From: Naegleria gruberi
Taxonomy: Eukaryota
DNA: 64,000 bases
NCBI GenBank assembly: GCA_000004985.1
Contig: GG738917.1
Strand: one strand, 5' to 3'
The notes below the pieces were generated by a model. That model made no database searches, was not told the origin of the DNA, and saw nothing but the letters and a program-made list of their open reading frames with translations. A program made the translations under genes and the position numbers. Positions 15,201-61,958 of the stretch are shown here, in pieces. Numbering within the stretch: the stretch's first letter is position 1; each line of letters opens with the position of its first letter.

Positions 15201-16421
15201 TGTAAAAATTGGAGATATGGGACTTTCCATAAAGTTAGAAGAACTCAATAGAAATAACTCGGCTTGGGGAACCAGACGATGGATGGCACCTGTAAGTAAT
15301 TATCAATTAATATTTCTAAAATCTCAATATAGGAGCAACGGTTGGGTAAAAGATATGACTCTACTGTGGATATTTGGAGTTTAGGATGTATTGCATTAGA
15401 AATGGTTTTACAATATTCGTATTCGATGGTTGTAAAGTCAAGTAATTCAATGGACAATATGGATCATGATATGAGACATGTGGACTATTATCAAGAAATT
15501 AAGAATAATCCTAACTTTTTGAATGATATACTAAGACCACTGGAGTCATACTATGATGACAATATAATAGAATTCATTAAAAAGTGCCTTGTTATTGAAC
15601 CATGGAAACGAGCCAAGGCTCAACAATTATATGGCCTACTCAATCAAGATATTAGATCAGTGGAGAACGCTGAGGTTCACTATGACCAGAGCCTTGAAGA
15701 GTTTCATCCATCTCCCTTCTCTGTGGAAAAGAAAGGATTGGAACAACTCCATGCAGCAACACCCACCGCTGCCAATATCCCTAACAAATTAATTGAAAAT
15801 GCAAGTCTAAGTAACTTGGCGCTCTTACAAAACGAAAGGGATAAAGTGAATGCATTGATAGAGAAAGTAGAAGAATCACAAAGTATTCGTAAAATATCCA
15901 ATCCAGTATTTATAGAGCTTGGAGCTGATAACAAAAAATATACTAAACCAGAACCAAAAGCAACCCACAAACTAACATCCACCATGACAATCGAAAGTAG
16001 AAATGTTCTCACAAGCCATGGATTAAGCACATTTTTCAAAGAAATTGAAGTTGAAGAAAATCATGAAAAAGAAAGCCAATCACTGAAAGACCACAATGAA
16101 TCCTCATCAAGCAATAATGAAATGCTTCCAGAAGAATTTTCCACACAAGTTAAAAGAGGTCATGAAAAGTCACTCCACAAACTCTTGCAAAAATCAATAT
16201 CTGATTGGACAACAAACGATGTAGGAATTTGGCTCATTTCAATTGATTTTAGCAAATTTGTTGAGAATTTTCAATCTCAGAATATTACCGGAAGAGCTTT
16301 ATTGTTAATAAGAGAAGAAGATATGAAAGATGTGGGTGTAGTTAAATTGGGAGACAAACTTTTATTGTGGAACATGATTCAGAATTTAAGACAACTTCAC
16401 GATAGAAAGCAAAAGAAATAA
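12286..16421 (+). CDS. Large Ser/Thr protein kinase: N-terminal low-complexity region, pseudokinase-like domain, active kinase domain, C-terminal SAM domain; join(12286..15291,15333..16421)
   Basis: Active kinase motifs: GSGSQGTV, VAIK, HRDISTKN, DMG, then GTRRWMAP|EQRLGKRYDSTVDIWSLGC restored by a 41-nt intron 15292-15332 (GTAAGT..TATAG). The upstream domain has a degenerate C-lobe (HGNIDVNSIFF, DLGG, KTEVWLFGILM, CHYDPSCRPNMREL). The C-terminal DWTTNDVGIWL..LGDKLLLWNMIQNL is SAM-like. Confidence 0.75.
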
Positions 16422-16646: not shown

Positions 16647-19600
16647 ATGCACATTAAATCTGTAACGATACAAGGCTTTAAATCATATCGTGATCAAACT
16701 TTCACTTCACAAGAATTTTCAGCCTCACAGAATATAATCGTTGGTAGAAACGGTAGTGGTAAATCCAACTTTTTCAGTGCCATCTCGTTCGTACTGAGTG
16801 AAAAGTTTAGTAAACTCAGAAGCGAAGAAAGACAAGCCTTTTTGCATGAAGGTACAGGTAGAGGTGTCATTTCTGCCTTTGTTGAAATTGTTTTTGACAA
16901 TTCTGACAACAGATTACCAACAGATAGCAAAGAAGTGGCTATTAGAAGAACCATTGGTTTAAAGAAAGACGAATATAGAATTGATGGCAAAGCTGTGACA
17001 CAACGTGAAGTATTTAATTTATTGGAATCTGCTGGTCTCAGTTCAAGTAATCCATACTATATTGTAGAACAAGGTAAAGTCTCTAGTTTGACAACTATGA
17101 AGGATGCGGAAAGACTTGAATTGTTAAAAGAAATTGCGGGAACTAAAGTTTACGATCAAAAGAGAGCAGAATCATTAACAATCATGAAAGATACTGAACA
17201 AAAGAAACAAAAAATTGATGAAGTTATTGAATATGTACAAGGTCGTCTTGATGAACTAGAGCAAGAAAAAGAAGAACTTAAAGAATTCCAAAAGCTTGAC
17301 AAGGATAGAAGATGTGTAGAATATGCCATTTTCGAACAAGAACTAAGCGAAGCAACTAAAAATTTAGAAGAAATAGAAAAAGCTAGAGAAAGTCAACATA
17401 CCCTCGCTAATCAATTGCATATGGACAAGATGCATTTACAACAAAAACTAAAGGACTACGAAAGGGATATTAAAACTGCTAAACTTCAAAAGGATACTAA
17501 GCAAAAAGAAAAAGAAATTTTAGAAAGTGAAAGACAAGACTTAATCAGACAAAGAACTAAGGTTGACCTAGAATTAAAAGACTACCAACAATTACATAAA
17601 GATGATGAAAGCACTCGTAATGACTTTGAAGAAGAACTTAGGGAAATAGATGAAAAGATCAATGATTTGAACTCACAATTGAATGATGAACTGATTCCAC
17701 AATTAGATTTATTGGTTAGAGAAGAAAAGGAAATTTCTGATAAATTACAACAAAGTGAAAGAAGAATGAACGAACTTTTGAGTATCCAAGGTAGAAAGAA
17801 TAAGTTTGATAATGTAAAAGACAGAAACAAATGGTTAACTGAAGAAATTAACAAATTAGAAAAAGTTAACGCAAGTTATGATGAACAAATTACAACAAGA
17901 ACTTCTGATGTTAAAAAACTTAAAGAAGCACTTTCTACCTATGAAAGAACTATTCAAGAAAAGGAAAAATCATTCTCTGACAATAGAAAGAAAATTGAAC
18001 AATACCAAAGAAATTATGTAAACTTAAAGGATCGTAGAGATAATCTTACCAATCAAAAGAAAGAATTATGGAAGGAACAAAATGATGTTGAAAAGGAAAC
18101 ACAAAGACTTCAAGACGAACTTGTCAGAGCTGAAAGAAAGTTAGATATGACTTTCCCAAAGTCTATTTCATCTGGTGTTCGTTCTGTAAATACTATCAAA
18201 AAGGAAAGAAATCTCTCTGGAGTTTATGGTACAGTTATTGAATTAATTAGATGTGATCCAAAATACCATAGAGCTGTTGAAGTTACTGCTGGAAATTCTC
18301 TCTACCATGTTGTTGTAGAAAATGAAAAAGTTTCTGGTGATATCATCAAAATTATGAATGAAAGTAATGCTCCTGGTAGAGTTACCTTTATCCCACTCAA
18401 CAGATTAAAAGCTTTGGACAGTGATGACAGTATTGGTACATCTGAATTCATTCCTCTTTGGAAGAAGATCGATGCTGATTCAAAGTTTAATGAAGTTGTC
18501 AAGAGTTTGTTTGGAAAGACTTTCTGTACCAAAACATTGGAAGATGGCGCTCAATTTGCTAAAGATCACAATGTAAACTGTGTAACTCTTGCTGGTGATC
18601 AAGCTAATAGAAAGGGTACTCTTACTGGTGGTTATATTGAACAAAAACAATCCAGATTAGATTGTTGGAAACAAATCAAGGATTTGAGAAAGACATATTC
18701 TGAAAGCTTTGATAAGTCCAAGAAGATTAAGGCTTCAATTGCCACTCTCGAAGAACAACTCAACAGTTGTATTACTGATTTACACAAGGTTGAATCTGAA
18801 GTTCACAACTCTAAGAATACCATTCAATACGAACAACAAGAAATTCACAACCTTACTGTAAGAAGAGATCTTATCAAGGACAATCTTCGTTCAAACGAAG
18901 AATTGTTGGAGAAGGTCAAATCTATCCTCTCTTCCAACAAGGAAACCATCGAATCATACACCAAGGAAAAGGATTTACCACTAGATGCTACACTCAACTC
19001 TAGAGAAAAGCAAGAACTTGAAAAGTTATCAAAGTCTGTTACTGAACTGACAACCAAGTTACAAGGTGTCTCCAAGAACAGATTAGAAAAAGAAACCAAG
19101 AAAGAAAGTCTTAGAATTCAATTGACTACAAACTATATTCCAAGAAAGTCCGAACTTCAAGTCTTGATAGAAACTCTCCCAACAGATAATTCTATTTCAT
19201 CCTCTCATCAAACTTTAATGCAACTCCAAACTGAGAAGCAAGTTACAGAAGAAAGAATTAAAGATACAACTGAATCAGTTAAGAGACTTGATCAAGAAAT
19301 TGATGAGTTGGGCGAAACCATCAGAAATAAGCAAGAACAATTGGAAACTGAAAAGTCTGAAGAAACAAAGAAATTACAAACTCTTCAAGAAAAGGCCAGT
19401 TCTCTTGAAAAACTTCTCAACAAGAAGAAGATTTGGTCTCAAAAGAAGGAAGAATGTATTAAACAAATCAAAGAATTGGGAACCCTTCCATCAGACTTTA
19501 GAAAATATCTTGAAACTGATCAAAAGTTATTGCTCAAGAAATTGCACAATACCAACGAAAAGCTGAAGAAATTCGGTCATGTCAACAAGAAGGCTCTTGA

Positions 19601-20339
19601 TCAATACGAACAATTCAGTAATCAAAAGGAAGAATTCCTGGAAAAGAAGAGTGAACTTGATAGCAGTGCTAAAGCAATTAATGAACTTATCCAAGTTTTA
19701 GATAAGAGAAAGGATGAAGCAATTGTAAGAACATTTAAGCAGGTACAAAAAAACTTCCAAGAAATTTTCCAAAATCTTGTTCCAGGTGGTCATGCTTCTC
19801 TGTCTATGAAATATAGAAATGGTGAAGATGAAGAAGAGGAAGAAGAAGAAGATGAAGAAGCAAAGGAAGTTGAACAATATGCTGGTGTTTCCATCAAGGT
19901 CTCTTTCATGTCAAGTGGTGACTCTGAAGAAGATCAATCATACCATCTCATGCAACAGCTTTCAGGTGGTCAAAAGTCACTTGTAGCTCTCTGTCTTATT
20001 TTTGCTATCCAACGTTGTGACCCTGCACCATTCTATTTATTCGACGAAATTGATGCTGCTCTCGATCCTGCCTACAGAACATCCGTTGCCAATATGATTG
20101 ATACTCTTTCAACGAAGGAAAAGATTCAATTTATTACAGCAACGTTCAAACCAGAAGTTTTAGAAACAGCTGAAAACTTTTATGGTATTTCATTCAAGAA
20201 TAAGGTTTCTTCAATCAAATTGATTTCAAAGAACGAAGCTCTCAAAGTTTTGCAAGAAGAAGAAAGACTAGGTGGCAATCCTCAAGAAATTGAAAGACCA
20301 TCGTCACCTGCAAAAGTTGATGAAATGGAAGATGAATAA
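16647..20339 (+). CDS. SMC3: Structural maintenance of chromosomes protein 3 (cohesin SMC3)
   Basis: 1230-aa single ORF. N-terminal Walker A (IVGRNGSGKSNFF); VEIVFDNSDNRLP; long coiled coils flanking a hinge; C-terminal ABC signature/Walker B/D-loop (QQLSGGQKSLVALCLIFAIQRCDPAPFYLFDEIDAALD); FITATFKPEVLE. Many segments match SMC3 rather than SMC1/2/4. Confidence 0.9.
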   Translation: MHIKSVTIQGFKSYRDQTFTSQEFSASQNIIVGRNGSGKSNFFSAISFVLSEKFSKLRSEERQAFLHEGTGRGVISAFVEIVFDNSDNRLPTDSKEVAIRRTIGLKKDEYRIDGKAVTQREVFNLLESAGLSSSNPYYIVEQGKVSSLTTMKDAERLELLKEIAGTKVYDQKRAESLTIMKDTEQKKQKIDEVIEYVQGRLDELEQEKEELKEFQKLDKDRRCVEYAIFEQELSEATKNLEEIEKARESQHTLANQLHMDKMHLQQKLKDYERDIKTAKLQKDTKQKEKEILESERQDLIRQRTKVDLELKDYQQLHKDDESTRNDFEEELREIDEKINDLNSQLNDELIPQLDLLVREEKEISDKLQQSERRMNELLSIQGRKNKFDNVKDRNKWLTEEINKLEKVNASYDEQITTRTSDVKKLKEALSTYERTIQEKEKSFSDNRKKIEQYQRNYVNLKDRRDNLTNQKKELWKEQNDVEKETQRLQDELVRAERKLDMTFPKSISSGVRSVNTIKKERNLSGVYGTVIELIRCDPKYHRAVEVTAGNSLYHVVVENEKVSGDIIKIMNESNAPGRVTFIPLNRLKALDSDDSIGTSEFIPLWKKIDADSKFNEVVKSLFGKTFCTKTLEDGAQFAKDHNVNCVTLAGDQANRKGTLTGGYIEQKQSRLDCWKQIKDLRKTYSESFDKSKKIKASIATLEEQLNSCITDLHKVESEVHNSKNTIQYEQQEIHNLTVRRDLIKDNLRSNEELLEKVKSILSSNKETIESYTKEKDLPLDATLNSREKQELEKLSKSVTELTTKLQGVSKNRLEKETKKESLRIQLTTNYIPRKSELQVLIETLPTDNSISSSHQTLMQLQTEKQVTEERIKDTTESVKRLDQEIDELGETIRNKQEQLETEKSEETKKLQTLQEKASSLEKLLNKKKIWSQKKEECIKQIKELGTLPSDFRKYLETDQKLLLKKLHNTNEKLKKFGHVNKKALDQYEQFSNQKEEFLEKKSELDSSAKAINELIQVLDKRKDEAIVRTFKQVQKNFQEIFQNLVPGGHASLSMKYRNGEDEEEEEEEDEEAKEVEQYAGVSIKVSFMSSGDSEEDQSYHLMQQLSGGQKSLVALCLIFAIQRCDPAPFYLFDEIDAALDPAYRTSVANMIDTLSTKEKIQFITATFKPEVLETAENFYGISFKNKVSSIKLISKNEALKVLQEEERLGGNPQEIERPSSPAKVDEMEDE

Positions 20340-21053: not shown

Positions 21054-21103
21054 NNNNNNNNNNNNNNNNNNNNNNNNNNNNNNNNNNNNNNNNNNNNNNN
21101 NNN
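21054..21103. other. Assembly gap (50 N)
   Basis: Run of N. Confidence 0.99.
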
Positions 21104-21208
21104 TTAACTCTTGAATGAATATGAATAAATTAGTCTTAGGATTCAGAAAATTGTTTCGTTAGTAAAATGTCAAAATTGTTTGTTTTTGAGGAGTAGGTAA
21201 CAATTAAA

Positions 21209-22360
21209 TTACTTCTTTTTGGCCTTCTTTTCTTTCTTTTTATAAATTGCTAACAGTTTCTCAAACTCCTTATCATACTTGATATCAAATCCATGAGCTG
21301 TATTCACAAAAGTTTGTTCAATCTTTTCCTGTTCTTCATCTGAAAATTTAATCTCAGAATCGCTAAAATCCAACTGTCCCACCAACTCCATTTTCACACT
21401 CTCAATCTTGTTTAAATTATGTGGACACAATTCAAAATAAAGTTTCCATTCGAATGTGTACAATTTTCTAATCATATCAGGCATGGAAGGTTTATACAGG
21501 GAACTAGTTGATGAAGAAAATTGTTTACTCTTTGAAGCCATTTGAGAAGTTGGAATGGAAGGTAAACTTGCAGAATGAGGAGTAAAATCAAAGAATTGAC
21601 CAGTCACTCTTTCCTTTCTTCTATGGCAAACAGTTACTTTTCCATTCGAAGGATCGATTATTATATCAATAAACCAAAATCCAGAATCTTTTATCATCAT
21701 ATTAATATATAAATTGAATTTTTGATTATATTTACCTTTGTACCTAAATAATTGTCCCAATTGTCTTTTAAGGGCAATTACACCAGGTGCTATTATAGAC
21801 TGATTGCAAAATTTTAAAATAGTTAGTACAGGTGATGCTTCTCCAAAATAATTAATTAGAAATGTTTCCAATGTTTGATAATTACTAAAATTGACATTAT
21901 TTTCTAATAATCGACAAGTAAATGATTGAATATTATTACCATTGACAAGACATGATTCAGAAAGATGCGGATCATTCATAGATTGTATCTAAATATAATT
22001 CATTTAATCAATTATATGAAATCAATATATTTACCTCACTGTACAATATTGAAAGTATTGAATGAATAACTTTGGTCAATTTGTTTTCACATTCAAAATC
22101 TTCTTCTTGAATATTAGAGTTGGGTATTGGATTCTTGGTATTTGGTTCTAAAACAGTTATCTTGTTACATAATCTTATCAAATCTTTAGCTACAGGTAGA
22201 TCAATGACTTTCCTATCATACAATGACACAAACAAATTATTTTAAAAACTTACTGTTGTGATATTCTTCTCACAGAATCGGCTGTTTCTACAAAATCCAA
22301 CAAATAAATTGGTGGTGATGTTGGTGAATTTTTAATGTCCTTTGCGTGTTTTGATCCCAT
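21209..22360 (-). CDS. Hypothetical protein (~354 aa) with N-terminal myristoylation-type motif (MGSKHAK); complement(join(21209..21988,22035..22212,22254..22360))
   Basis: Exon 1 ATG at 22360 (MGSKHAKDIKNSPTSPPIYLLDFVETADSVRRISQ). A 41-nt intron (GTAAGTTTTT..TATGATAG, 22213-22253). A 46-nt intron (GTAAATAT..ATATTTAG, 21989-22034). Both junctions keep frame and merge the ORF-track pieces 22008-22235 and 21209-21979. Lys-rich C-terminus. Confidence 0.55.
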
Positions 22361-23762
22361 TCTTATTTTTATTCGAAACTAATTTTACTAAACATAGAGT
22401 CAAAATACAACTTCCAATGATTGTTTTCTTCTTCCTGCCGATGATGATGATGCTGCTGGTGGAATATTCTTTGAAAAAAAAAAGAGTAATGAGTATCAAA
22501 GTTTGCCGTTTTTTTTTAGTTTTTGAAAATAATTGTTCTGAAAAGGCAGCATTTCTTCTTGAAAGGTCGAATGGCATACAAATTTAGAGAAAAACGTACG
22601 AAACAACTTTTTGTAAATGTGCACTGCAGTGATGATTCGATTCGATGGCTCAATATTTATCTCATTCAAACAAATCATATTAGACTATTAGATATCATCA
22701 TATAGAAGTCAACTGAAAATGAAAAAATGTAGTAACAAATACAATCATACGAAGAAAATGAAAACGTTTGTGTATTATGATAAACAGATGGATCATGTGG
22801 ATGATGAAAGTTCAGTATATCCACACAATCTAGCCATACAGTTAGAAGGCCTTCCCTTTGATTTTCAATGAAAAAACGCGGGTTTTCCTTAAATTAAAAT
22901 TGGAACAGCTTCAATTAAGGAAACCGTAGTGAACAGATGAAATTCATGTAGACACTGTGAAGGAAAATGATCCATGAAAATAAGAACTTGCTCCTTTATA
23001 TTAAGTTACTGCACGAATCAGAGGAAATGAAAAATTATTCTTTATTTCGAAAGGACATGATTCTTTTTTCACAAATCGGTGACAATTCGTTATTAGAACA
23101 AGTCCCTTTTGGGTTTCCCTAATATTCCTTCTTTTTACTTACTGGGTATCACCAATTAATTGAATTTAAATCATTTAATTCTTATCAGCTCGAGTTAGTA
23201 TTGGATTGCTGACAATTCAAGTCTCAGACATGTCTCATTGAATGAAGCAACGTTATTTTTCTAACGTCTTCTAAGCAATCGTACCAGAAAGCCTTGATCA
23301 TCAAAATTTGGTATCGAGAGCTCTTCAGACACAACACACGACAAGATTTAACATCGAGTTATGTTGTTGTGCTGTTTGCTTTCGACATCAACAATGTGTC
23401 TTCTCGTGTTGCTGTTGCTTGGTTCTTCATCAAATTACCAACTCCTTTTTCTCTTCTATTTTTAACGAGAAAAAAGGAACGCAACAAGTTGGCACCACAC
23501 AAAGTTGAAAAAAAACCACAACGATTTTTCTCTGAGAAGATTTTACTTTGCTTCCAATACCGACAGCACAAAGACGACAATTATTGGGAGCACATTACAC
23601 AAATAACAACAACACCACTTACATTCTGAACAATAGTGTTTTTTTGTCAAAAGCAACTATTTTATACTATTTAGCAAGAGAAATAGGTGTTCCATATAAC
23701 CTTTATATTTTGGAGTAACATACATATATTCATAATTAATAGATAAAACACATCAAGGAATC

Positions 23763-26422: not shown

Positions 26423-26494
26423 TCCCGTGTAGTCCAATGGCTAGGATACCTGGCTTTCACCCAGGAGGTCCGGGTTCAATTCCCGGCATGGGAG
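26423..26494 (+). tRNA. tRNA-Glu (anticodon UUC)
   Basis: Cloverleaf: acceptor TCCCGTG/CATGGGA; anticodon stem CCTGG/CCAGG with loop CTTTCAC; T-arm GGTTCAATTCC; discriminator G. Confidence 0.9.
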
Positions 26495-26578: not shown

Positions 26579-27550
26579 TTACAAGGATGGTTTGATGATT
26601 GGCTTTGATGGCTTCTTGCATGTCTTTCTCTTGATACAAATCTTCTTCTTAATTGACTTGCAACACTTCTTCTTTCCACCAACTAATTTGAATTTCTTAC
26701 AAATCTTCTTTCCCTTTGAACGTTTCAAACACTTCTTATAATACTTCTTCTTGATACATCTTGGAGGAATGACAATTGACTTGGCACAATACTTCTTCTT
26801 ATTATATTTAACACATTTAGAAAGAGTCTTCTTGTGCTTACAGAACTTGATGGTCTTATGTTTGGCACAGAAGTATTTCTTCTTAATGAGACAACATTTC
26901 TTGACTGATTTTCTCTCCTTACAGTATTTAACCTTCTTATACTTGGCACATTTCTTTGCCCATGAAACAATCTTACACTTTTTAACATATCTACATTTGG
27001 CAACCTTCTTATTGTAGGAATCAACAGTGTACTTGTCACAAATCTTCTTCTTTTCACACTTCTTGATTGGAACCTTCTTGAATTTCTTACAGACCTTCTT
27101 ATATCCATTCTTGAAACACTTGTTGATAATCTTATATTTGGCACAGAATTTCTTGAAACCCTTCTTAACACAAATCTTCTTAGTTCCATAAGAATCACAA
27201 ACTTTCCAGTACTTCTTCTTGGCACAACCAACAATCTTATATGCATGCAAGACACACTTCTTTGTTGGCTTGCTATACTTGTCACATTTGGAATATTTCT
27301 TATGTTTGAGACATTTACCAGCCCCTACAATTGCATATTGATCACAGACCTTCTTTTGACCAACAAGTTTGTGTTTCAAACACTTCTTAATCCACTTGTG
27401 CTTTAAGCATTTTCTCTTACAATGCTTTGGCTTGTGATACTTGTCAACAACAACAACTGGAGGTTTAGTTTGATAGCTGTCACTTGCTTGAACTGAGAGG
27501 ACTGCAAGTAAAAGTAGAAGTGCAATTGAAAAGATTAGATTTGCTTTCAT
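26579..27550 (-). CDS. Secreted hyper-basic Lys/Cys-rich repeat protein (~324 aa precursor from MKANLIFSIALLLLLAVLSVQA)
   Basis: ATG at 27550 followed by a canonical hydrophobic signal peptide. The mature part has about 30 Cys at a regular 8-12 residue spacing, embedded in Lys runs (recurring KKC / KYxKKC units). Roughly one residue in three is Lys. The ORF-track version (347 aa) starts at an upstream in-frame codon. The antisense ORF 26725-27285 is an artefact of the repeat. Confidence 0.7.
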   Translation of the reverse strand: MKANLIFSIALLLLLAVLSVQASDSYQTKPPVVVVDKYHKPKHCKRKCLKHKWIKKCLKHKLVGQKKVCDQYAIVGAGKCLKHKKYSKCDKYSKPTKKCVLHAYKIVGCAKKKYWKVCDSYGTKKICVKKGFKKFCAKYKIINKCFKNGYKKVCKKFKKVPIKKCEKKKICDKYTVDSYNKKVAKCRYVKKCKIVSWAKKCAKYKKVKYCKERKSVKKCCLIKKKYFCAKHKTIKFCKHKKTLSKCVKYNKKKYCAKSIVIPPRCIKKKYYKKCLKRSKGKKICKKFKLVGGKKKCCKSIKKKICIKRKTCKKPSKPIIKPSL

Positions 27551-27867
27551 TTTTTGTTGGATAGGATAGTTCAACCATGGTGCTAATTTAAACCATTTCG
27601 AATAATTTTTCATTTGGAACAAGCTTTAAAAAGTTGGTTGTAAGGTTCCAAATTTGGAAAGAAAATTGATTTCCCTAACCAAACCTTCAATGATTCAACT
27701 ATCAACTCATCATTCCAAAAGTATTCTTATTATCAACAGATATGTTGAATGATTTACAACCTGAACAATTTCAAGCACCTGTGAAAGACATTGCTAATGT
27801 ACAAGATGGTTTTATTACAATATGACATATAAATATGTTAATGGTGTGTCTACAATAATCAAATTGG

Positions 27868-29426
27868 TTAAACAATACTGTTCTTTAATTGAATGTCTCT
27901 AGAGAAGGAATACTTTTTGAATTCAGAAGTTTCTTTCAATCGTTCAAAAGTATCATTAAGATTTAACATTAACTCAGTTGTTACAATATTTCTAATGAGG
28001 GACAATTTGACTGGTTGTTGATTTTCATAGATAGATACAAGTTCCTTCTTTGCTGGCGATGGAAGATTGACTTCATATTTTGAAAGAGATTGAAAGTAAG
28101 TTTCAAATAAATGTTTGAAAGTTTCCACTGTCACTAATACATCATCCTTCTCTTTCAGATTTTCTAATTCTTCATATAAGAGTGCATTTTCTAGTGAAAA
28201 TTCCTTAGCGCAATACATTTTAAACAATTCCTTAAAAGTGTCATCTTTCATTAATTCTTCCAATCTAGATTCTTGTTTAATATTATCTGAAACTGCGTTT
28301 CTCCTCTTTAAAATAAATCTTCTCCATTCCAATACAATTGCTGTTCCTCCCCCAAGACCGTATGTACATAAGCATGCGAGAGATGACAACACAGAGGTCA
28401 CAACTTCCTCATAATCATACGTGAATTGAGAACAAATTGCAATCACAATGGTAATTAACATGATACACAAGAAATAAATCAAATCAATTCTCAACCCAAA
28501 TGGATCTTCAAAGGAAAGAAAATTCAACAGACCCTTATCCTTAATCTTTTTCCAGTTTAAGGCAATATCAATTAGAATTATCAAGGAACCAATATTGTTC
28601 CTAATAAAATTTGAACAGCATACATTATATTCAATTCGGCTTGTAAGGAGTATTGTTTTTGATCAACTATATAAGGAATGCAAATAATCATCCAAATACA
28701 GGCATAGGTAAATCCACTCACAAATGAACCAATGATACCAAACCAACTGGATACCAGAAACTTGTGAATCTTGATAGTAGTTTCGCTCTTTGCCTTTGAA
28801 AGAAATAGATAAAGATATCTGAGGTAGGAAAATCTTATTAGGGAAAATCCATAAATTCCAACAATGGCAGATAAAAAGCAAATACTCAATACATAATTGA
28901 CAGATCGACATGAAAGGGTATATGATGTAAAGCTAATATTAAATACAATTATCAAAATAGGTAATGCATAAGGAGCTGTCAATCTTCTTTTCACAGATTT
29001 GGTTTTACAAACTGTCAACAAGGCCAAATAGAATAGAAAACCAATAATGACAGTAGCCCAAATAACAGACTCATACACAATCTCTGCGTTTCTATCAACT
29101 TCATTAGAACAAACATTGTACTCGTCACTGAATTTTTCATAACAATACATTTCATTAATGGTCATGAATGAAGTTGACTGATTGTAATAATACTGAGATT
29201 GTAATTCATAATCTAAAACGTATTTTTCACTAGAAAATGGATAAAAGAGTGCATTGTGTTTTCTAACTAGTGGAATGTCATTGAATTGATTCAGATAATA
29301 GGTAAGAAACTCCTTTTGATATCCTGAAATGTTACCGAAACCATTTTGATAAAACATGTAACCAATATTTCTCTTGATTTCAAAATATTTCATTGTTGTA
29401 TTGGTACCAATGAAATACTCATTCAT
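27868..29426 (-). CDS. Seven-transmembrane protein with C-terminal RGS domain (7TM-RGS). Two ORF-track frames (28581-29426 and 27868-28584) need joining.
   Basis: Hydrophobic helices: ATVIIGFLFYLALLTVC, ALPILIIVFNISFTSYTL, VLSICFLSAIVGIYGFSLI, VSSWFGIIGSFVSGFTYACIWMIICI, IDLIYFLCIMLITIVIAICSQF, VLSSLACLCTYGLGGGTAIVL. The RGS domain is FKELFKMYCAKEFSLENALLYEELENLK... A -1 frame change occurs near 28600-28640 (unresolved: tiny intron, frameshift or error). Confidence 0.65.
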
Positions 29427-29465
29427 TCTCTTGTAGAGCGAATCAAGATGATTTTCAATTATTGT

Positions 29466-30146
29466 TTAATTTAAATTAGTTTCATTATAATAAACTGAAA
29501 CTGAAATAGGTACTTGAAATTCAGAAAGAAAAGAAAAGTCACTCCACTCATACAATCCATTCCATTCCCTTTTCCTTGGAAGACTTTGTACGAAACTACG
29601 TAGAAAATCTTCACTGCTCATCACAAACACATCATACAAGTCAATTGGATTTCCAAAAATACAATCAATATATAAATAATTAAAAGTCTGTACACTTTCA
29701 GGAATAATCTTTGATTGGTTACCATTCTTATTGTACATTTCTAATTGACTTTTGAAAACTGTTTCTGTCAAGACCAAATCACTAACAAGTATTTCACTTT
29801 CGTCTTGATTATACACATTTTCAGCAGGAGAGTATGGATGAATAATCACAATTCGTTTACCATGCAAATCTAGTGGTGAGGATAATGACATCTTTGGTGA
29901 GAAGGAAAAGACTGTCAAGTAATTTAATGATGAAATAATGGACGGATGGAGAGATTGTTTAATCATGGATTGTTTGATTTGAAGGAGAGAATGTTCTTGA
30001 AGTTGTGGGTGTTGTTGTGAGAAAGATCTATCTGTGTTAATGAGTGCTAGGAATGAAAGGATCAATAGGAAATGAACAAGAGTTCGTGTCATTTTTTTTT
30101 GACTATTCAGGTGGAATTTACCCGTGATTGTTGATATTTGTTTCAA
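29466..30146 (-). CDS. Signal-peptide-bearing ectodomain ORF, possibly the 5' part of the 7TM-RGS gene downstream
   Basis: Internal Met starts a signal peptide (MTRTLVHFLLILSFLALINT). The ORF ends at a TAA (29466-29468) that lies in the same frame as the next ORF's ATG (29424-29426), 39 nt away. A GTTTAT..CTACAAG 66-nt candidate intron would remove the stop in phase. The downstream ORF has an N-glycosylation-rich ~120-aa pre-TM region that would need a signal peptide. Confidence 0.4.
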   Translation of the reverse strand: MKQISTITGKFHLNSQKKMTRTLVHFLLILSFLALINTDRSFSQQHPQLQEHSLLQIKQSMIKQSLHPSIISSLNYLTVFSFSPKMSLSSPLDLHGKRIVIIHPYSPAENVYNQDESEILVSDLVLTETVFKSQLEMYNKNGNQSKIIPESVQTFNYLYIDCIFGNPIDLYDVFVMSSEDFLRSFVQSLPRKREWNGLYEWSDFSFLSEFQVPISVSVYYNETNLN

Positions 30147-30339: not shown

Positions 30340-30409
30340 GCGTCGATGGTTTAGTGGTAGAATACGGCGTTGCCATCGCCGTGACCCGGGTCAATTCCCG
30401 GTCGACGCA
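30340..30409 (+). tRNA. tRNA-Gly (anticodon GCC)
   Basis: Acceptor GCGTCGA/TCGACGC; anticodon stem CGGCG/CGCCG with loop TTGCCAT; T-arm CCGGGTCAATTCCCGG; discriminator A. Confidence 0.85.
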
Positions 30410-30972
30410 TTCAAAGATAACAATTTTTACTTTCTACATACAATATTATAATATTGTATATAATATTGGACCAAAGCCTTAATATCATTTGTATCATTCA
30501 TAAGCATTAGTTATTGCAATTCTTGATAAATATTCAATCCCTTTTTCTCCAATATTAATAAATTAGATCAAAGATTGGAAATTTCCTTTTATCCTTTCTT
30601 CTGACACATTTCTATTCAACGTTAAACATTCAGTTGTCGCAAATTTTGACAAATAGATCGACTTCCTACATCTTGAACCTATGCTGAAATCAAGTTTAGT
30701 TTCGTTAAAGTTGAAGTTTTTATTTGAAATTAAATTAGCTCCTTCACTTCCCAATTTTACATGTTTCATTTCATTTTGGAACTATATCTTAATAAATCAA
30801 AATTGAGATCAATCTTAAAAGGTTAATCTTTTCAGTTTCGAACACTTTGAAAGGTGTTTAACAGTTTCATCTCCTACCACTCCATTAATTCCCTCTATCA
30901 ATGCTAAACCTGAAAGTAATTCATTTTTTCTTTTCTTCATGGAACTTTGATTGTTGTTGAAAACGTTGTAAG

Positions 30973-31053
30973 GCGGTCTTGACCGAGTGGTTAAGGTGAT
31001 TGACTAGAAATCAATTGGGGAGACCCGCACAGGTTCGAGTCCTGTAGATCGCG
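30973..31053 (+). tRNA. tRNA-Ser (anticodon AGA), class II with long variable arm
   Basis: Acceptor GCGGTCT/AGATCGC (one G-U); D-arm CCGAGTGGTTAAGG; anticodon stem ATTGA/TCAAT with loop CTAGAAA; variable arm GGGGAGACCCGC; T-arm CAGGTTCGAGTCCTG; discriminator G. Confidence 0.85.
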
Positions 31054-31127
31054 ATTGTTTTTATTAAGGTATCACATGTTAAAGTGTGATATTATTTTGA
31101 TTAATAAACATATTGTTATTGGGAAGA

Positions 31128-31200
31128 TCCCCCTTAGCTCAGTCGGTAGAGCGTCAGACTGTTAATCTGCAGGTCGGTGGTTCGAGCCCACCAGGGGGAG
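31128..31200 (+). tRNA. tRNA-Asn (anticodon GUU)
   Basis: Acceptor TCCCCCT/AGGGGGA; D-arm GCTCAGTCGGTAGAGC; anticodon loop CTGTTAA; T-arm GGTGGTTCGAGCCCACC; discriminator G. Confidence 0.85.
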
Positions 31201-46219: not shown

Positions 46220-49200
46220 ATGGAACAAGATACATTGCTGGAGGAGGAAATAGATTTTGATCAACAACAAGAAGAACAGCAGCATTATCATGGAGAGGAT
46301 ATCCACTCGGATGAAAATATTTTGAATGAATCTACAAGTAATGATAATCAAGAGGAAATAGTCAATAGTGATGAACAAGGACAAGACGAGGCTTTGTGTA
46401 GAATTTGCAAACAGCCTGCAGCTGATGATGACCCTCTTTTCCATCCGTGCAAGGTATGTTTTAAATATATTATATATTAGTATTGATATTGTAGTGTTCC
46501 GGAAGTATTAAATACATTCACGAATCATGTTTAAATGAATGGATGAAACACTCTAACAAGGGAAAATATTGTGAAATATGTAAACATCAATTCAAGTTTG
46601 AAAAAGTGTATACTACAGATGCACCTATTAAATTGTCACCCTTGCAATTTATTTTAGGCTTACTTTCGGTTGTATTTAGTTATTTAAAATCAATTAGTAG
46701 AATTCTTCTTGTAGTATTCATTTGGATAGTTTTAGTACCTTTTATTACCTATCAGTTTTATAGGATTGTGAATATAACCTCATGGAGACAAATACTGTCA
46801 ATAGTTGAGTTTGAAACTCTATTCGAAGATTTTTCTCTCTTATTATTCATCAGGGATTGTATGTTAGGAGGAACAATTTGTTTATTTGTACTACTTTTAG
46901 ATTTGATTACTGCTGGAGTTTTAGAATTCATCAAGTCTAATTTGGAGTTGTTAGAAAATTATGTTAATCCTCAACAACAAAATCAAGTGGCAAATAATCA
47001 ACCACAACCTGTTAATGCTCAAGTAGCTAATAATGCTAATAATAATAACAATGAAGTTTTAACATTGAGGGATTTGCTGAACCAAGAGCAAGAAATGCAA
47101 GAAGAGGATGAAAATAATGGGAATGAAAACAATGAAGATCAGGAAGAAGAGGAAGAAGAGGAAGAAGAAGAGAATATTGAGAATGAAAATAATGATAATC
47201 AGCCAAACATTATTCAACCTCCTCAACCAATTGTTAATAATCAACCACCAAATAATCCTCCACAACAACAACAACAACCTAGAGAGGAATTGGATTTGGA
47301 AGAAATGATTGGTATCAAGGGAAAGATTTCTCATTTGATTGAAACTGTTGCTTTGGTACTTTTCGTCAATTCTCAACACATATTGTTGTTACTCTTCCTT
47401 CCTCTACAAATTGGAAGGTTTTTATGCACAACCATTGTTCAAGAATTGGATATTTCGTCAGTAATTTATCAAGTCTTGGCTGAACATAATTTATTGAAGA
47501 ACACAACTCAAATTATTTCCAATGTTACCCAAACCATGAATGAGGTATTTAATCAAACTATTACCACTAATGGAACCATGGCCAATGAACCTAAGGAATC
47601 TGTGGAATTGACTAGTATTATGGTGTTTGCCGAAAAGATAGCACATATTTTGACTGGTTATGCATTTTTGATAGGAATGATTTATACCTATGTAGTCATC
47701 AATTATTTGCTACATTATGGTATTTCTAAGAAGTACTTCCCAATAAGTGGATTGGCTAAGAAATTGGTTTATTATACCAAGTATGTGTTGCTCCTTGTCA
47801 AGATTGCTGCAATTCTTGCCACCAACTTTATTTTAGTTCCTTTCTTAGTAGGAATGTTACTTGTCTTTTCAACCATTGAATTCTTTAAAAGAAATGAGAA
47901 ATCAGTTCTTCCTCAAGACTTTACAACAACATCCAATTCTACAAGTTTCTCTATTGCAGACCAAGCTTCAATGATTTATAATAGTACTGCTCCAATAGTC
48001 CAGGAATTTACTGAGAAAAATGCTACTGAATTAGTAAGAGGTTTAATTATTGGTACTCATGCTTATTTCCAATCAGTGTCTGTGGAGTGGGTTCTTTCAA
48101 GAATGGTTTACATCATGAGTGTATCATTTATTTATTTCGTATTTGGTATCGTTGTAGTAGTAATTGCTAGTAGCTTTATTCAAATGCTTAGATCCTTCCT
48201 CTCAAAGAGAGTACTTTGGTTTTTGAGAGATCCAGACGACCAAAATTTCCACTACTTGAAGGAGCTAGTGACTCTTGGAGTTTTCACACATATGCGTAGA
48301 ATATTCTTCTCCTTTGTGTTTTTATCAATTCTTGTACTTGCATTAGTTCGTACTCCTTTGAAGCTTGCTAGATTTATTCTTCAAGATTATGATATTTTCC
48401 CTCTTAGATTGAGCTCTAACTTGAGTGAGTCTACCACAATAATTGAGCTTACAGTGGATGCTTCACTTCCAATAATTACTTTCAATTATATGCAACAAAG
48501 ATGGCTCAGNNNNNNNNNNNNNNNNNNNNNNNNNNNNNNNNNNNNNNNNNNNNNNNNNNGCTGAATTGAAAAATCATCATTTCTATACTTACATTGTTGG
48601 ATTTTACTTGATCAGTGGTGCTATTTATTTGGTCAATTATGTTTATACTCACAGATCACTTACTGAAGCTATCAAGTGGACTTTGGTTGTATTGAAATCA
48701 TTTATTATGGGAGTATTTTCTATTGTGTTGATCCCATTACTCATAGGTGGTGCTGTACATATGTCTGTAGTGGTACCAACCACTTTATTTATTAGCAAGC
48801 TTGAATCTGAGGATCTAGATGATAGTTTGAGTGGCTCTCAACCTGTTCTTATGTTGGCAGAGGTATGGTCAACTGGGTTGTTATTCACAATTGTAGCTTA
48901 CAAAGTGGTTAAGTTCTTGCCAGGTACGGAAGAAATATACACAGAAATTTCCCGCATCAAGACAAATGGATTCAGAAATGTTGAATTTATTAGACCTTTG
49001 AATCGAGTGCTTTTACCATTTGTGTATAATTTGGTTCTTTTCTTGACTTTACCATTTATTGTTTCCAAGTTAGTTGTTCCATTCTTTGTTACTCCATATG
49101 TTCAATATCAATTGTTTGTGTTGAGCTATCCTGCTCTTGTTTTTTGGATTGTTTCAAAACATATTTATTTTGTGTTAGCCAAATTATACCACAAACTTCA

Positions 49201-49270
49201 TGATTTAGTTATGGATCAACTATTCCTTTCACAAGAAAGATTAATCAATCACAGAGATCAACAACAATAA
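46220..49270 (+). CDS. Doa10/TEB4 (MARCH6)-type ER membrane RING-CH E3 ubiquitin ligase; join(46220..46453,46495..49270), interrupted by assembly gap 48510-48559
   Basis: A 41-nt intron (GTATGT..ATTGTAG, 46454-46494) reconstitutes the RING-CH finger CRICKQPAADDDPLFHPCK|CSGSIKYIHESCLNEWMKHSNKGKYCEICKHQF. It is followed by an acidic low-complexity insert and more than 10 hydrophobic segments. The frame across the N gap is undefined. Confidence 0.8.
48510..48559. other. Assembly gap (50 N) inside the Doa10-like gene
   Basis: Run of N. Confidence 0.99.
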
Positions 49271-49274
49271 ATTG

Positions 49275-50708
49275 TTATTGTCCATTCTTACTGAGATCTT
49301 TTTTTAAATTAATTTCTTTCCATTCTTGAACAATTCTTTTAGCCTCCATATTTTGAGATTTTAATCTTTCAAAACAATCTAACATATCATTCATACAATG
49401 AATTGAAATCTTATCAAACACACCACTTGAAATTGATTGATTTTGGATTGAGTTTAATATTTCATCATGAGTTTCAACCAATTTAGGATAATTTAACTCT
49501 AATGGTGAGCCGTGTTTTAAATAGGTATTTAAAATTTGTAAAGCAATTTTAACTCTATTCTTTTTAGCTGATTTTTTAAATGTTTCAATATGTTTATAAC
49601 ATAAAATACTTTCAGGTGCGTAGCTTCTTCTAGCGAAATCTAAAAGCATGTTAAATGTTTTTTTCTGAATTAGGAAATATTTAATTTCAGAATTTTCAAT
49701 AATTAAACTCATTTTTCTATCATATCTAATTGCATAAATAATTGGAAGTAAAACTGTTACAATTACTTCTGTAAATGAATAAATAATAAATAAATATCCA
49801 TATGGAATAAAAAAATCCAGTAAATATTTAAAAACTGGAATGAAGGCAAAAATTATAAATAATACTATTGTTAATATTTGAATAATTACTATAAATATTG
49901 CCTCCCTTTTAATAAAATATGTATCCTTATCTGTGAAAAAGTATAAAACTAGTCCAATCAATTCAAATATCATGTAAAATATTGTTGTAACTGCAACAAT
50001 GATTAAAACATTTGTTGTACTACTACAACCTCTATTGAATACAAAAATTCCACCTCCTTCTGTAGCAAATATCTTATCTTCCAAAGGAGATTTCTTCAAA
50101 CTCACTCCATATTCAATTCCACCCAATAGAATAAATATTAATATATGAACAATTGAAACCAATACATAAACTGGTATAATAAATTTGTAACTCACTAGAA
50201 AGTTCATAATTTTGTGAGATTTTTCATTGGAAAATCTATTGAAAATATTAAATTTTCCACCAACTTGTAAATTATTGTTTTGTTGAAAATCAAAAATTTC
50301 ATTTGGATGAATCCAAGAAATAGAATCTTGATCTTGTGCAGTATTTGTTGTTGATGTATCTTCCATATCCATTATATCATATATATTTTCCTGATGATCA
50401 TTTGGTATTTCATTAAATTTATCATTTCCAATATTATTAAAAGTGGTATCATTATCAATAGTATTAGGAGTATTATTGTTAGTGTTGTTGTTATTGGTAT
50501 TGGATGAATCTATTGTTGATAATTCTGATTCAGTACTTTGAATTTTTTGTAATGATTTTTCATTTTTTAAATTTTGAAATGTTGACTTTTCCATAATAAA
50601 TGATTTTTCCTTCTTATTTTCATTACTGTTAATAGTAAATATATTAGTTTTATGTAAATTCATCCAATGCATGTAATATAATCTGAATAATCTAAATATG
50701 GAAGGCAT
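49275..50708 (-). CDS. Multi-pass membrane protein with C-terminal RGS domain (second 7TM-RGS-type gene; this ORF carries 5 predicted TM helices plus RGS)
   Basis: Hydrophobic segments: FIIPVYVLVSIVHILIFILLGG, VLIIVAVTTIFYMIFELIGLVLYFF, IFIVIIQILTIVLFIIFAFIPVF, YLFIIYSFTEVIVTVLLPIIYAI. RGS domain: FNMLLDFARRSYAPESILCYKHIETFKK..ALQILNTYLKHGSPLELNYP. An N-rich insert sits in the first loop. Confidence 0.7.
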   Translation of the reverse strand: MPSIFRLFRLYYMHWMNLHKTNIFTINSNENKKEKSFIMEKSTFQNLKNEKSLQKIQSTESELSTIDSSNTNNNNTNNNTPNTIDNDTTFNNIGNDKFNEIPNDHQENIYDIMDMEDTSTTNTAQDQDSISWIHPNEIFDFQQNNNLQVGGKFNIFNRFSNEKSHKIMNFLVSYKFIIPVYVLVSIVHILIFILLGGIEYGVSLKKSPLEDKIFATEGGGIFVFNRGCSSTTNVLIIVAVTTIFYMIFELIGLVLYFFTDKDTYFIKREAIFIVIIQILTIVLFIIFAFIPVFKYLLDFFIPYGYLFIIYSFTEVIVTVLLPIIYAIRYDRKMSLIIENSEIKYFLIQKKTFNMLLDFARRSYAPESILCYKHIETFKKSAKKNRVKIALQILNTYLKHGSPLELNYPKLVETHDEILNSIQNQSISSGVFDKISIHCMNDMLDCFERLKSQNMEAKRIVQEWKEINLKKDLSKNGQ

Positions 50709-50744
50709 AATAACAGCAGAAGGTAAAGCAAAATAGGAAAGTAA

Positions 50745-51170
50745 TTAAATTCCACAACTGAAATATTTTCTTCCAATAGCAAAACGAAGACATAATGTTA
50801 TAATACACCATGAACTTGCAAATAAAGTCATTATCATATAAATTGGATGTCTTGCTTTGATATGTTTACTGTTTCTCTTCCAAAAAAGTCCAATTCCACA
50901 TAAAACTAAAACAATTAAATAAAGAGTTAGACATAAAATAGATATTGATGATGATAACCATGTTTCTGGACATATTCCATATTCAATTATTCCTTTATCT
51001 TTACTAAAATCTCCTAATTGACTTAAAATTGAATAACACAATGTTACGTTAGTAGTGGTAGTTGTATTACTGTAAGTATTATTGTATGCATTTTCATTAG
51101 TTAACGATATTGAATAGATGCGAAATGTATCAAATAGAATAGAAGATGATTCCAGAGCTTTTGTTGCCAT
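50745..51170 (-). CDS. N-terminal 2-TM segment (N-glycosylation-rich N-terminus, then 2 helices), probably the 5' part of the RGS gene downstream. Same frame, separated only by a TAA.
   Basis: The stop TAA at 50745-50747 and the next ATG at 50706-50708 are 36 nt apart in the same frame. 2+5 helices would give a 7TM topology. No frame-preserving GT..AG intron could be found that removes the TAA. Confidence 0.4.
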   Translation of the reverse strand: MATKALESSSILFDTFRIYSISLTNENAYNNTYSNTTTTTNVTLCYSILSQLGDFSKDKGIIEYGICPETWLSSSISILCLTLYLIVLVLCGIGLFWKRNSKHIKARHPIYMIMTLFASSWCIITLCLRFAIGRKYFSCGI

Positions 51171-61886: not shown

Positions 61887-61958
61887 TAGCAAATCTAGGT
61901 TTCGATCCTAGGACCTATGGGTTATGAGCCCATCGCGCTTCCGCTGCGCCAATTTGCT
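61887..61958 (-). tRNA. Initiator tRNA-Met (anticodon CAU)
   Basis: Minus-strand reading: AGCAAATTGGCGCAGCGGAAGCGCGATGGGCTCATAACCCATAGGTCCTAGGATCGAAACCTAGATTTGCT + A. It has A1:U72, three G-C pairs in the anticodon stem, and the GATCGAAACC T-loop (A54/A60), all typical of eukaryotic initiator tRNA. Confidence 0.85.

What the first reader, a model, noticed from the sequence alone, without database searches (positions are those of the whole stretch)
49275..51170. Second 7TM-RGS-type gene B, again split by a single in-frame TAA (2 TM + stop + 5 TM + RGS)
ORF 50745-51170 (N-glycosylation-rich N-terminus plus two helices) and ORF 49275-50708 (five helices plus RGS) are in the same reading frame, 36 nt apart, separated only by TAA. 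Together they give exactly seven helices before the RGS domain. I could find no frame-compatible GT..AG intron that removes the stop. Two independent 7TM-RGS loci in one 64-kb window, both with the same kind of in-frame TAA interruption, is a pattern worth testing. Candidates: recently pseudogenised paralogs, programmed stop-codon readthrough, or a recurrent assembly or basecalling error in AT-rich context. TAA itself is clearly a genuine stop in this genome: SMC3, RPL11, APEH and others end with TAA at conserved C-termini.
Basis: partly seen in the sequence, partly recalled or inferred. Interest (0 to 1): 0.6.

Follow-up and report, generated by a model that had tools for sequence, protein, structure and literature searches.

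The report
Broken receptor gene in Naegleria gruberi
This is one copy of a large, already known family of Naegleria membrane receptors that switch off G proteins. It carries a single premature stop codon, most likely a recent disabling mutation or less likely a sequencing error, so it is an ordinary finding.

Summary
On the minus strand, ORF 50748-51170 and ORF 49278-50708 share one frame and are separated only by TAA (50745-50747) plus 12 sense codons. Read through, they give a 631-residue protein with seven hydrophobic helices and a Pfam RGS domain.

The window is Naegleria gruberi NEG-M. The gene belongs to a large Naegleria family of seven-helix (7TM) RGS receptors that is already described and tested biochemically in N. 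fowleri (28 members).

In an alignment of 61 homologues, the TAA sits in the first turn of helix 3, three residues after an invariant Cys. That column is Tyr 30, Phe 16, Leu 7, so the stop is one nucleotide from TAT/TAC or TTA.

- No plausible intron removes the stop.
- Its context, TAATTA, is identical to a genuine terminator in the window.
- No RNA structure follows it.
- None of 82 homologues that carry the conserved motif just upstream ends there.

Both halves of the gene are otherwise well conserved. The only coding lesions found in the 64 kb are this stop and the stop plus frameshift in the other 7TM-RGS gene (gene A).

Best reading: a very recent nonsense mutation (young pseudogene or null allele) in a fast-turnover receptor family, about 0.65. 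A base-call error is about 0.25. Programmed readthrough is unlikely. I found no independent reads covering the site. Interest is low.

The parts
50748..51170 (-). N-terminal open stretch of gene B, codons 1-141. It holds a presumed extracellular N-terminus with 3 N-x-S/T sequons, helix 1 (about 50883-50951), helix 2 (about 50781-50843) and the conserved motif GRK-x-F-x-C.
   Evidence: The family profile scores this stretch at E=6e-43 (gene B is one of the 62 sequences that built the profile). It aligns with 61 homologues.
50745..50747 (-). In-frame TAA at codon 142. It lies in the first turn of helix 3, three residues after an invariant Cys.
   Evidence: the homologous column is Y30 F16 L7 H3 I2, and Cys at -3 is present in 62 of 62 sequences. 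In the AlphaFold model of homologue P0001, helix 3 starts at that Cys.
50709..50744 (-). Twelve sense codons (LLSYFALPSAVI) between the TAA and the first ATG of the downstream ORF. They form part of helix 3.
   Evidence: this stretch aligns without a gap to homologues (for example CGLLTICFFTFPPAVSLP in P0001).
50211..50708 (-). The end of helix 3 followed by a low-complexity, Asn/Thr-rich loop (about aa 165-320). By topology it is presumably cytoplasmic.
   Evidence: The equivalent loop in P0001 is longer and has low model confidence.
49728..50210 (-). Helices 4 to 7 (about aa 321-481), including the conserved 'GC' of the loop between helices 4 and 5.
   Evidence: (G545 and C546 of P0001 are nearly invariant).
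49383..49673 (-). RGS domain (aa 500-596).
   Evidence: Pfam PF00615, E=1.4e-6, 29.1 bits against a cut-off of 23.9. The family profile matches RGS10, RGS2, RGS16 and RGS4 chains in the PDB, best E=3e-12. The fold of the homologue matches RGS16, RGS1 and RGS8.
49275..49277 (-). Terminal TAA of gene B. It lies 4 nt from the end of the convergent MARCH6-like gene.
27868..30092 (-). Gene A, a distant member of the same family, used for comparison. It has a signal peptide, a large ectodomain, the helices and an RGS domain. It is disrupted by TAA at 29466-29468 and by a frameshift within 28583-28662.
   Evidence: The family profile aligns to aa 435-728 across the frameshift, E=3e-22. The 208-aa N-terminal fragment is publicly annotated as NAEGRDRAFT_74780.

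Best explanation
Gene B is a member of the Naegleria 7TM-RGS receptor family. Intact relatives have an extracellular N-terminus, a seven-helix membrane bundle and a cytoplasmic C-terminal RGS domain. That domain speeds GTP hydrolysis on G-alpha subunits, which has been shown for N. fowleri members.

In this copy, codon 142 is TAA. The same position is Tyr, Phe or Leu in relatives, so one nucleotide change from TAT/TAC or TTA accounts for the stop. Translation would end after helix 2. The 141-residue fragment would lack helices 3-7 and the RGS domain, so the copy is a null.

Everything else in the gene is intact and well conserved, so the mutation is very recent. It may be a young unprocessed pseudogene, or a null allele of the (possibly heterozygous) laboratory strain NEG-M.

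Shown here: family membership, position of the stop, absence of an intron, and absence of readthrough signals. Inferred: that the TAA exists in the organism's DNA, and that no full-length protein is made.
For: Source of the window:
- It is N. gruberi NEG-M: five window ORFs are identical to public NEG-M proteins on a 223,047-bp scaffold, and the SMC3 exons are 100% identical.

Family membership:
- A profile search finds 427 relatives, 93 of them at E<=1e-30.
- These include intact annotated N. gruberi paralogues of 631-661 aa and N. lovaniensis members.
- Single BLAST alignments run from aa 45 to 618 across the stop.

Position of the stop:
- It lies in a conserved motif at a Y/F/L column.
- 0 of 82 homologues that carry the motif end there.

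No rescue of the stop:
- All 135 frame-restoring GT..AG pairs delete at least 78 residues, including conserved helix 3, and have non-consensus donors.
- A real intron in this window is 41 nt with GTAAGT..TAG ends.
- Homologue P0001 is encoded by a single exon.

Lesions are confined to this family:
- In the scan of open stretches of at least 90 codons, the only coding lesions in the 64 kb are the three in the two 7TM-RGS genes.
- Randomly placed sequencing errors would rarely give that distribution.
- It is expected for a large, fast-evolving receptor family: 28 members in N. fowleri (PMC9283941).
- Gene A has two lesions, so disabled family members do occur.

Why both stops are TAA:
- TAA makes up 51% (gene B) and 46% (gene A) of possible one-step nonsense codons.
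Against: No independent reads or assemblies of this site could be found, so the TAA rests on one draft assembly.

The gene shows no other sign of decay. Both halves are 55% identical to the family consensus and rank 38 of 43. That fits a sequencing error or readthrough as well as it fits a very recent mutation.

No close orthologue is available; the best match is 40% identical. Selection after the stop arose therefore cannot be measured.
Confidence: 0.65

Rival explanations
1. Base-call or consensus error in the draft Sanger assembly. The real genome has TAT/TAC (Tyr) or TTA (Leu) at 50745-50747, and gene B is an intact, functional 631-residue 7TM-RGS receptor.
For: The gene has exactly one lesion, one nucleotide from the residues that homologues use at that column. 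It is otherwise among the most consensus-like members in both halves. The assembly is a draft with five N-runs in the window. Neither gene B ORF matches any public protein, so the annotators produced no model identical to either ORF.
Against: The site is 2,186 nt from the nearest gap. No other gene in the window shows a stop or frameshift lesion among open stretches of at least 90 codons. All three lesions fall in the two members of one family, about 4 kb of roughly 45 kb of coding sequence by my estimate. That distribution is unlikely for random errors. An independent metagenome contig covering 1,379 bp of this window shows 0 substitutions against the reference.
Confidence: 0.25
2. Programmed stop-codon readthrough. 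The UAA is decoded at some frequency as a sense codon, so a full-length receptor is made at a regulated low level. The same might apply at gene A.
For: The reading frame is conserved on both sides of the stop. Two family members in one window carry an in-frame TAA.
Against: The context TAA-TTA is the same hexamer as the genuine terminator of NAEGRDRAFT_74783, and other true stops here are TAATTT. From general knowledge, UAA is the least leaky stop in eukaryotes. The 120 nt downstream fold less well than shuffled controls (z=+2.3). No homologue has a stop at this column. Gene A also needs a frameshift correction, which readthrough cannot supply. No suppressor tRNA gene lies in the window.
Confidence: 0.03
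3. Two separate products. A 141-residue two-helix protein is made, and a 477-residue protein starts at Met154 by re-initiation or from an internal promoter, giving an RGS protein with fewer helices.
For: An ATG lies 12 codons after the stop. RGS proteins with fewer than seven membrane helices exist in many lineages (PMC3971589).
Against: Met154 lies inside conserved helix 3, so the product would begin with half a helix and lack the invariant Cys. The 12 codons between the stop and the ATG are conserved as coding sequence. None of the 82 homologues that carry the motif ends at this position.
Confidence: 0.04
4. An unrecognised intron removes the stop codon.
For: 135 GT..AG pairs restore an open frame. 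N. gruberi has short introns.
Against: The shortest candidates (234-249 nt, with donors GTTGTGGA or GTGGAATT) delete at least 78 residues, including helix 3. Homologues align through that region without a gap. P0001 is encoded by a single exon across this region.
Confidence: 0.02

Closest known systems
Naegleria fowleri 7TM RGS proteins (28 members; Nf 7TM RGS1-4 studied; Bosch et al. 2022, PMC9283941)
   Same: Same genus and same architecture: extracellular N-terminus, seven helices and a C-terminal RGS domain. Both belong to large, diversified families. The RGS domains of the N. fowleri members act as GTPase activators on N. fowleri G-alpha subunits.
   Different: Gene B is an N. gruberi copy with a premature TAA at codon 142. 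I did not establish sequence orthology to any particular N. fowleri member. Gene B has a short N-terminus, without the EGF, lectin or GPS modules described for Nf 7TM RGS1-4.
Annotated N. gruberi and N. lovaniensis paralogues (NAEGRDRAFT_62211, _74512, _58380, _75602; C9374_011232, _011233, _006186, _005666)
   Same: Homologous over the full length. They share the motif GRK-x-[FY]-P-C-x-[LI]-[YF] before helix 3, the GC loop and the RGS domain.
   Different: They are only 30-45% identical to gene B, and none is a one-to-one orthologue. All are uninterrupted at the column where gene B has TAA.
Arabidopsis AtRGS1 and Trichomonas 7TM-RGS proteins
   Same: Same domain logic: a seven-helix receptor fused to an RGS domain that deactivates G-alpha. 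The architecture is reported in many bikonts (PMC3971589, PMC9283941).
   Different: I found no detectable sequence relationship of the membrane part. These proteins did not appear among the named hits I examined.
Unprocessed pseudogenes in expanded receptor families (for example vertebrate olfactory receptors, nematode chemoreceptors); comparison from general knowledge
   Same: A single disabling nonsense or frameshift mutation in an otherwise recognisable member of a large, fast-turnover receptor family.
   Different: Pseudogene frequency in the Naegleria family is unknown. This copy shows no further decay, so it may be a segregating null allele rather than a fixed pseudogene.

Membership tests
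7TM-RGS receptor (Naegleria family) | C-terminal RGS domain | tested here: met
   Pfam PF00615 scores 29.1 bits against a cut-off of 23.9 at aa 500-596. The family profile, which includes gene B, matches RGS10 at 3e-12 and also RGS2, RGS16 and RGS4. The model of homologue P0001 matches RGS16, RGS1 and RGS8 with target TM-scores of 0.68-0.79.
7TM-RGS receptor (Naegleria family) | Seven transmembrane helices N-terminal to the RGS domain | tested here: met
   Met only if the TAA is read as a sense codon. There are seven hydropathy peaks. They are colinear with the seven confident helices (pLDDT above 90) in the AlphaFold model of homologue P0001.
7TM-RGS receptor (Naegleria family) | Full-length homology to recognised family members | tested here: met
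   Single BLAST alignments cover aa 45-618 to P0126 (40% identity) and aa 32-619 to N. gruberi P0132. The profile search finds 427 relatives. Named Naegleria members are listed.
7TM-RGS receptor (Naegleria family) | Uninterrupted reading frame | tested here: not met
   TAA at 50745-50747. No plausible intron removes it.
7TM-RGS receptor (Naegleria family) | Residues that contact G-alpha, and GTPase-activating activity | tested here: inconclusive
   I read gene B against the RGS10 alignment by eye, with RGS4 numbering taken from memory. Gene B keeps the Glu of SYAPES, the Asn of LELN (RGS4 Asn128 equivalent) and the Asp and Arg of LDCFER. The Asn88 equivalent is Ser, as in the family consensus. 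Activity itself cannot be tested with these tools.
Unprocessed pseudogene or null allele | Disabling lesion in a copy homologous to functional genes | tested here: met
   The stop falls at codon 142 of 631, before helices 3-7 and the RGS domain.
Unprocessed pseudogene or null allele | Lesion present in the organism's DNA and not an assembly artefact | not testable with these tools
   No independent sequence of the site was found.
Unprocessed pseudogene or null allele | Signs of relaxed constraint (further lesions, loss of conserved residues) | tested here: not met
   There is only one lesion. The N-terminal and C-terminal blocks are both 55% identical to the family consensus, rank 38 of 43. 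If the lesion is real, it is recent.
Programmed stop-codon readthrough | Leaky stop context or a stimulating downstream RNA structure | tested here: not met
   The hexamer TAATTA is the same as at a genuine terminator in the window. The downstream 120 nt are less structured than shuffled controls, z=+2.3.
Programmed stop-codon readthrough | Stop codon conserved at the same position in relatives | tested here: not met
   All 61 aligned homologues have a sense residue at this column. None of 82 homologues with the motif ends there.
Variant genetic code (TAA as a sense codon) | TAA frequent inside conserved genes and not used as a terminator | tested here: not met
   TAA ends 22 of 31 long open stretches. 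It also ends all 7 ORFs checked, six of which match public proteins. The whole window holds only two single-stop splits.

The most novel reading that the evidence does not exclude
The in-frame UAA codons in both 7TM-RGS genes are real and are partly read through, or are maintained as heterozygous null alleles. In that case Naegleria would tune or diversify its receptor repertoire through premature stops rather than simply losing genes.
Probability: 0.03. Interest if true: 0.55.

Novelty: new member of a known kind. Interest (0 to 1): 0.12.

Why it matters
It matters little beyond annotation. It adds one apparently unannotated and apparently disabled member to the known Naegleria 7TM-RGS family. 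It also shows that NAEGRDRAFT_74780 is the N-terminal fragment of a second disrupted member.

If the stops are real, they suggest gene birth-and-death in this receptor family. Relaxed selection in the long-cultured strain NEG-M is another possible cause. A genome-wide count of disrupted members could test this.

If the stop is an error, the correction restores one more intact receptor. Neither outcome changes how 7TM-RGS signalling is understood.

Tried and rejected
- **Word-indexed homologue search.** For gene B it returned one protein, P0001. For gene A it returned nothing, although the exact 208-aa fragment is in the collection. That tool therefore has imperfect recall, and its silence is weak evidence.
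- **P0001 as orthologue.** I first treated it as the orthologue of gene B and then rejected that. Its N. gruberi orthologue is P0123, and gene B has no close orthologue among the sequences found.
- **Exact look-ups.** I looked up the 141-aa ORF, the 477-aa ORF, two versions with alternative starts, and six one-nucleotide 'repaired' full-length proteins (Y, L, K, Q, E, S). All were negative.
- **Metagenome scans.** One used the protein and one used a 24-base DNA pattern around the stop. Both found nothing.
- **Profile search input.** I used an alignment of the two window ORFs with P0001 instead.
- **Single-sequence search of the RGS region against the PDB.** It gave only spurious leucine-rich-repeat matches to the stretch NQSISSGVFDKI. 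The family profile was needed to reach RGS structures.
- **Synteny with the N. lovaniensis locus.** None beyond the RGS genes themselves.
- **Intron rescue of the gene A frameshift.** Many chance GT..AG pairs exist, but none is convincing. The family profile aligns straight across the shift.
- **N. gruberi genome paper.** It is not held in the library.

Full report
**What is in the sequence.**
On the minus strand, ORF 50745-51170 (141 codons plus TAA) and ORF 49275-50708 (477 codons plus TAA) lie in the same frame. The 36 nt between them read LLSYFALPSAVI without a stop. The only interruption is therefore the TAA at 50745-50747.

Hydropathy places two helices before the stop (about aa 74-96 and 110-130). 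A third begins at the stop (about aa 141-160). A low-complexity loop follows (about aa 165-320), then four more helices (about aa 321-481). Pfam RGS matches aa 500-596 above its curated cut-off.

A six-frame scan of the whole 64 kb finds only two places where two open stretches of at least 90 codons are split by a single stop. These are this site and 29466-29468 in gene A, and both are TAA.

**Source of the window.**
The SMC3 ORF at 16647-20339 is identical, exon for exon, to the public N. gruberi SMC3 model. Five other window ORFs are exact matches to proteins of N. gruberi strain NEG-M on a 223,047-bp scaffold. One of them is the F-box gene NAEGRDRAFT_74787, directly upstream of gene B.

The window has five N-runs, so it comes from a draft scaffold. 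TAA is the usual genuine terminator. It ends 22 of 31 long open stretches. It also ends all seven ORFs checked, six of which match public proteins.

**What the gene is.**
I built a profile from the two window ORFs plus the first hit, P0001 of N. lovaniensis. Searched against 1.84 billion representative proteins, it finds 427 relatives, 93 of them at E<=1e-30.

Named members include intact N. gruberi proteins of 631-661 residues (NAEGRDRAFT_62211, _74512, _58380, _75602) and several N. lovaniensis proteins. Two of the N. lovaniensis genes sit in tandem. Gene B aligns to many of these in one piece from about residue 45 to 618, across the stop.

Gene B has no close orthologue in the data. Its best matches are 35-40% identical. 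P0001, which I first took for the orthologue, pairs instead with N. gruberi P0123.

An AlphaFold model of P0001, made with a 40-sequence family alignment, is confident (pLDDT above 90) over seven membrane helices and the C-terminal helical domain. Its best PDB matches are RGS16, RGS1 and RGS8. The family profile matches RGS10, RGS2, RGS16 and RGS4 by sequence.

The architecture is already known. N. fowleri has 28 7TM RGS proteins, and the RGS domains of three of them accelerate GTP hydrolysis on N. fowleri G-alpha subunits (PMC9283941). 7TM-RGS proteins are reported in many bikonts (PMC3971589).

**Where the stop sits.**
In a MAFFT alignment of gene B with 61 homologues that cover this region, the stop lies in a strongly conserved motif, GRK-x-[FY]-P-C-x-[LI]-[YF]. 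The Cys three residues upstream is present in all 62 sequences.

The column under the stop is Tyr 30, Phe 16, Leu 7, His 3, Ile 2. TAA is one nucleotide from TAT/TAC (Tyr) and from TTA (Leu). TAT and TTA are the common codons for those residues in this gene.

In the P0001 model, helix 3 begins at that Cys, so the stop is in the first turn of helix 3. Of 82 family proteins that carry the motif, none ends at that position. The stop is therefore specific to this copy.

**Explanations tested and found wanting.**
The shortest are 234-249 nt with poor donors, and every one deletes at least 78 residues, including conserved helix 3. The one verified intron in the window is 41 nt with GTAAGT..TAG ends and restores the kinase motif WMAPE. 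P0001 is encoded by a single exon.
- *Readthrough.* The hexamer TAATTA at the internal stop is identical to the terminator of NAEGRDRAFT_74783. The 120 nt downstream fold less well than shuffled sequence (z=+2.3). No relative has a stop there. The window holds no suppressor tRNA.
- *Variant code.* Excluded by how TAA is used elsewhere in the window.

**Real mutation or sequencing error.**
I could not find independent sequence of the site. The following all returned nothing:
- exact look-ups of both ORFs;
- look-ups of two versions with alternative starts;
- look-ups of six 'repaired' full-length proteins;
- two metagenome scans.

The gene is otherwise pristine. Its N-terminal and C-terminal conserved blocks are both 55% identical to the family consensus, among the highest of 43 members. 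That fits either a very recent mutation or an error.

The distribution of lesions favours a real mutation. Among open stretches of at least 90 codons, the only stop or frameshift disruptions in the window are three, and all lie in the two members of this one family. Those genes occupy about 4 kb of roughly 45 kb of coding sequence, by my estimate.

Gene A carries a TAA and also a frameshift. The family profile aligns straight across the shift, so disabled members do exist. The site is more than 2 kb from the nearest gap. An independent metagenome contig that overlaps 1,379 bp of the window shows no substitutions against the reference.

That both stops are TAA is unremarkable. About half of all one-step nonsense changes in these AT-rich genes give TAA.

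**Verdict.**
Gene B is a member of the known Naegleria 7TM-RGS receptor family. No public protein matching it was found, so it appears to be unannotated.

| Reading | Probability |
|---|---|
| Recent nonsense mutation at a Tyr/Leu codon, truncating the protein after helix 2 | about 0.65 |
| Base-call error in the draft assembly | about 0.25 |
| Readthrough, re-initiation or an intron, together | below 0.1 |

The finding is ordinary. Its main practical value is to correct the annotation of this locus and of gene A, whose N-terminal fragment is annotated as NAEGRDRAFT_74780.

Noticed in passing
window 27868-30092 (- strand): Gene A is a distant member of the same 7TM-RGS family, with a signal peptide and an ectodomain of about 315 aa. 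It has TAA at 29466-29468 and also a frameshift within 28583-28662. Its 208-aa N-terminal fragment is publicly annotated as a separate protein, NAEGRDRAFT_74780. The ectodomain has no detectable homologues.
   Followed up: partly
window 16647-20339 (+ strand): SMC3 is one uninterrupted 1230-codon ORF. It is 77% identical over its full length to the 1235-aa N. lovaniensis protein. The public N. gruberi model (936 aa) skips about residues 249-541, so it appears to contain a spurious intron.
   Followed up: partly
window 15292-15332 (+ strand): A 41-nt intron (GTAAGT...ATATAG) lies in a kinase-SAM gene (12286-16418). Removing it restores the kinase motif WMAP|E. It serves as a local example of how short and canonical N. 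gruberi introns are.
   Followed up: yes
window 21106-22482; locus L002 (ENA ERZ929261, run ERR1078381, project PRJEB11402): A metagenome contig matches the reference with 0 substitutions and three small indels (3, 2 and 2 nt). All are outside the 256-aa ORF or in frame. The contig stops next to the reference gap at 21054-21103. N. gruberi DNA of the same or a near-identical strain is therefore present in that metagenome. The indels look like allelic differences rather than errors.
   Followed up: partly
window 46543-49270 (+ strand): A MARCH6/Doa10-like E3 ligase gene is interrupted by the 50-N gap at 48510-48559. Its stop lies only 4 nt from the stop of convergent gene B, so the two 3' untranslated regions must overlap.
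   Followed up: no
locus L001 6001-8391 and 8518-10855 (N. lovaniensis PYSW02000004.1): Two family members (C9374_011232 and _011233) sit head-to-tail 127 nt apart, a tandem duplication. The flanking genes show no synteny with the N. gruberi window.
   Followed up: partly
window 26579-27622 (- strand): A 347-codon ORF encodes an extremely Lys- and Cys-rich repetitive protein (KKC, CxK and KYxK repeats) behind a signal-peptide-like start. Its function is unknown.
   Followed up: no
window 26423-26494, 30340-31200, 61887-61958: Five tRNA genes are present. They include a cluster of Gly(GCC), Ser(AGA) and Asn(GTT) just upstream of gene A. None is a suppressor.
   Followed up: yes
window 49395-49430 (gene B aa 581-592): The stretch NQSISSGVFDKI inside the RGS domain mimics the leucine-rich-repeat consensus NQLQSLPNGVFDKL. 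It produces spurious PDB hits to repebodies and LRRTM, which is a chance resemblance.
   Followed up: yes
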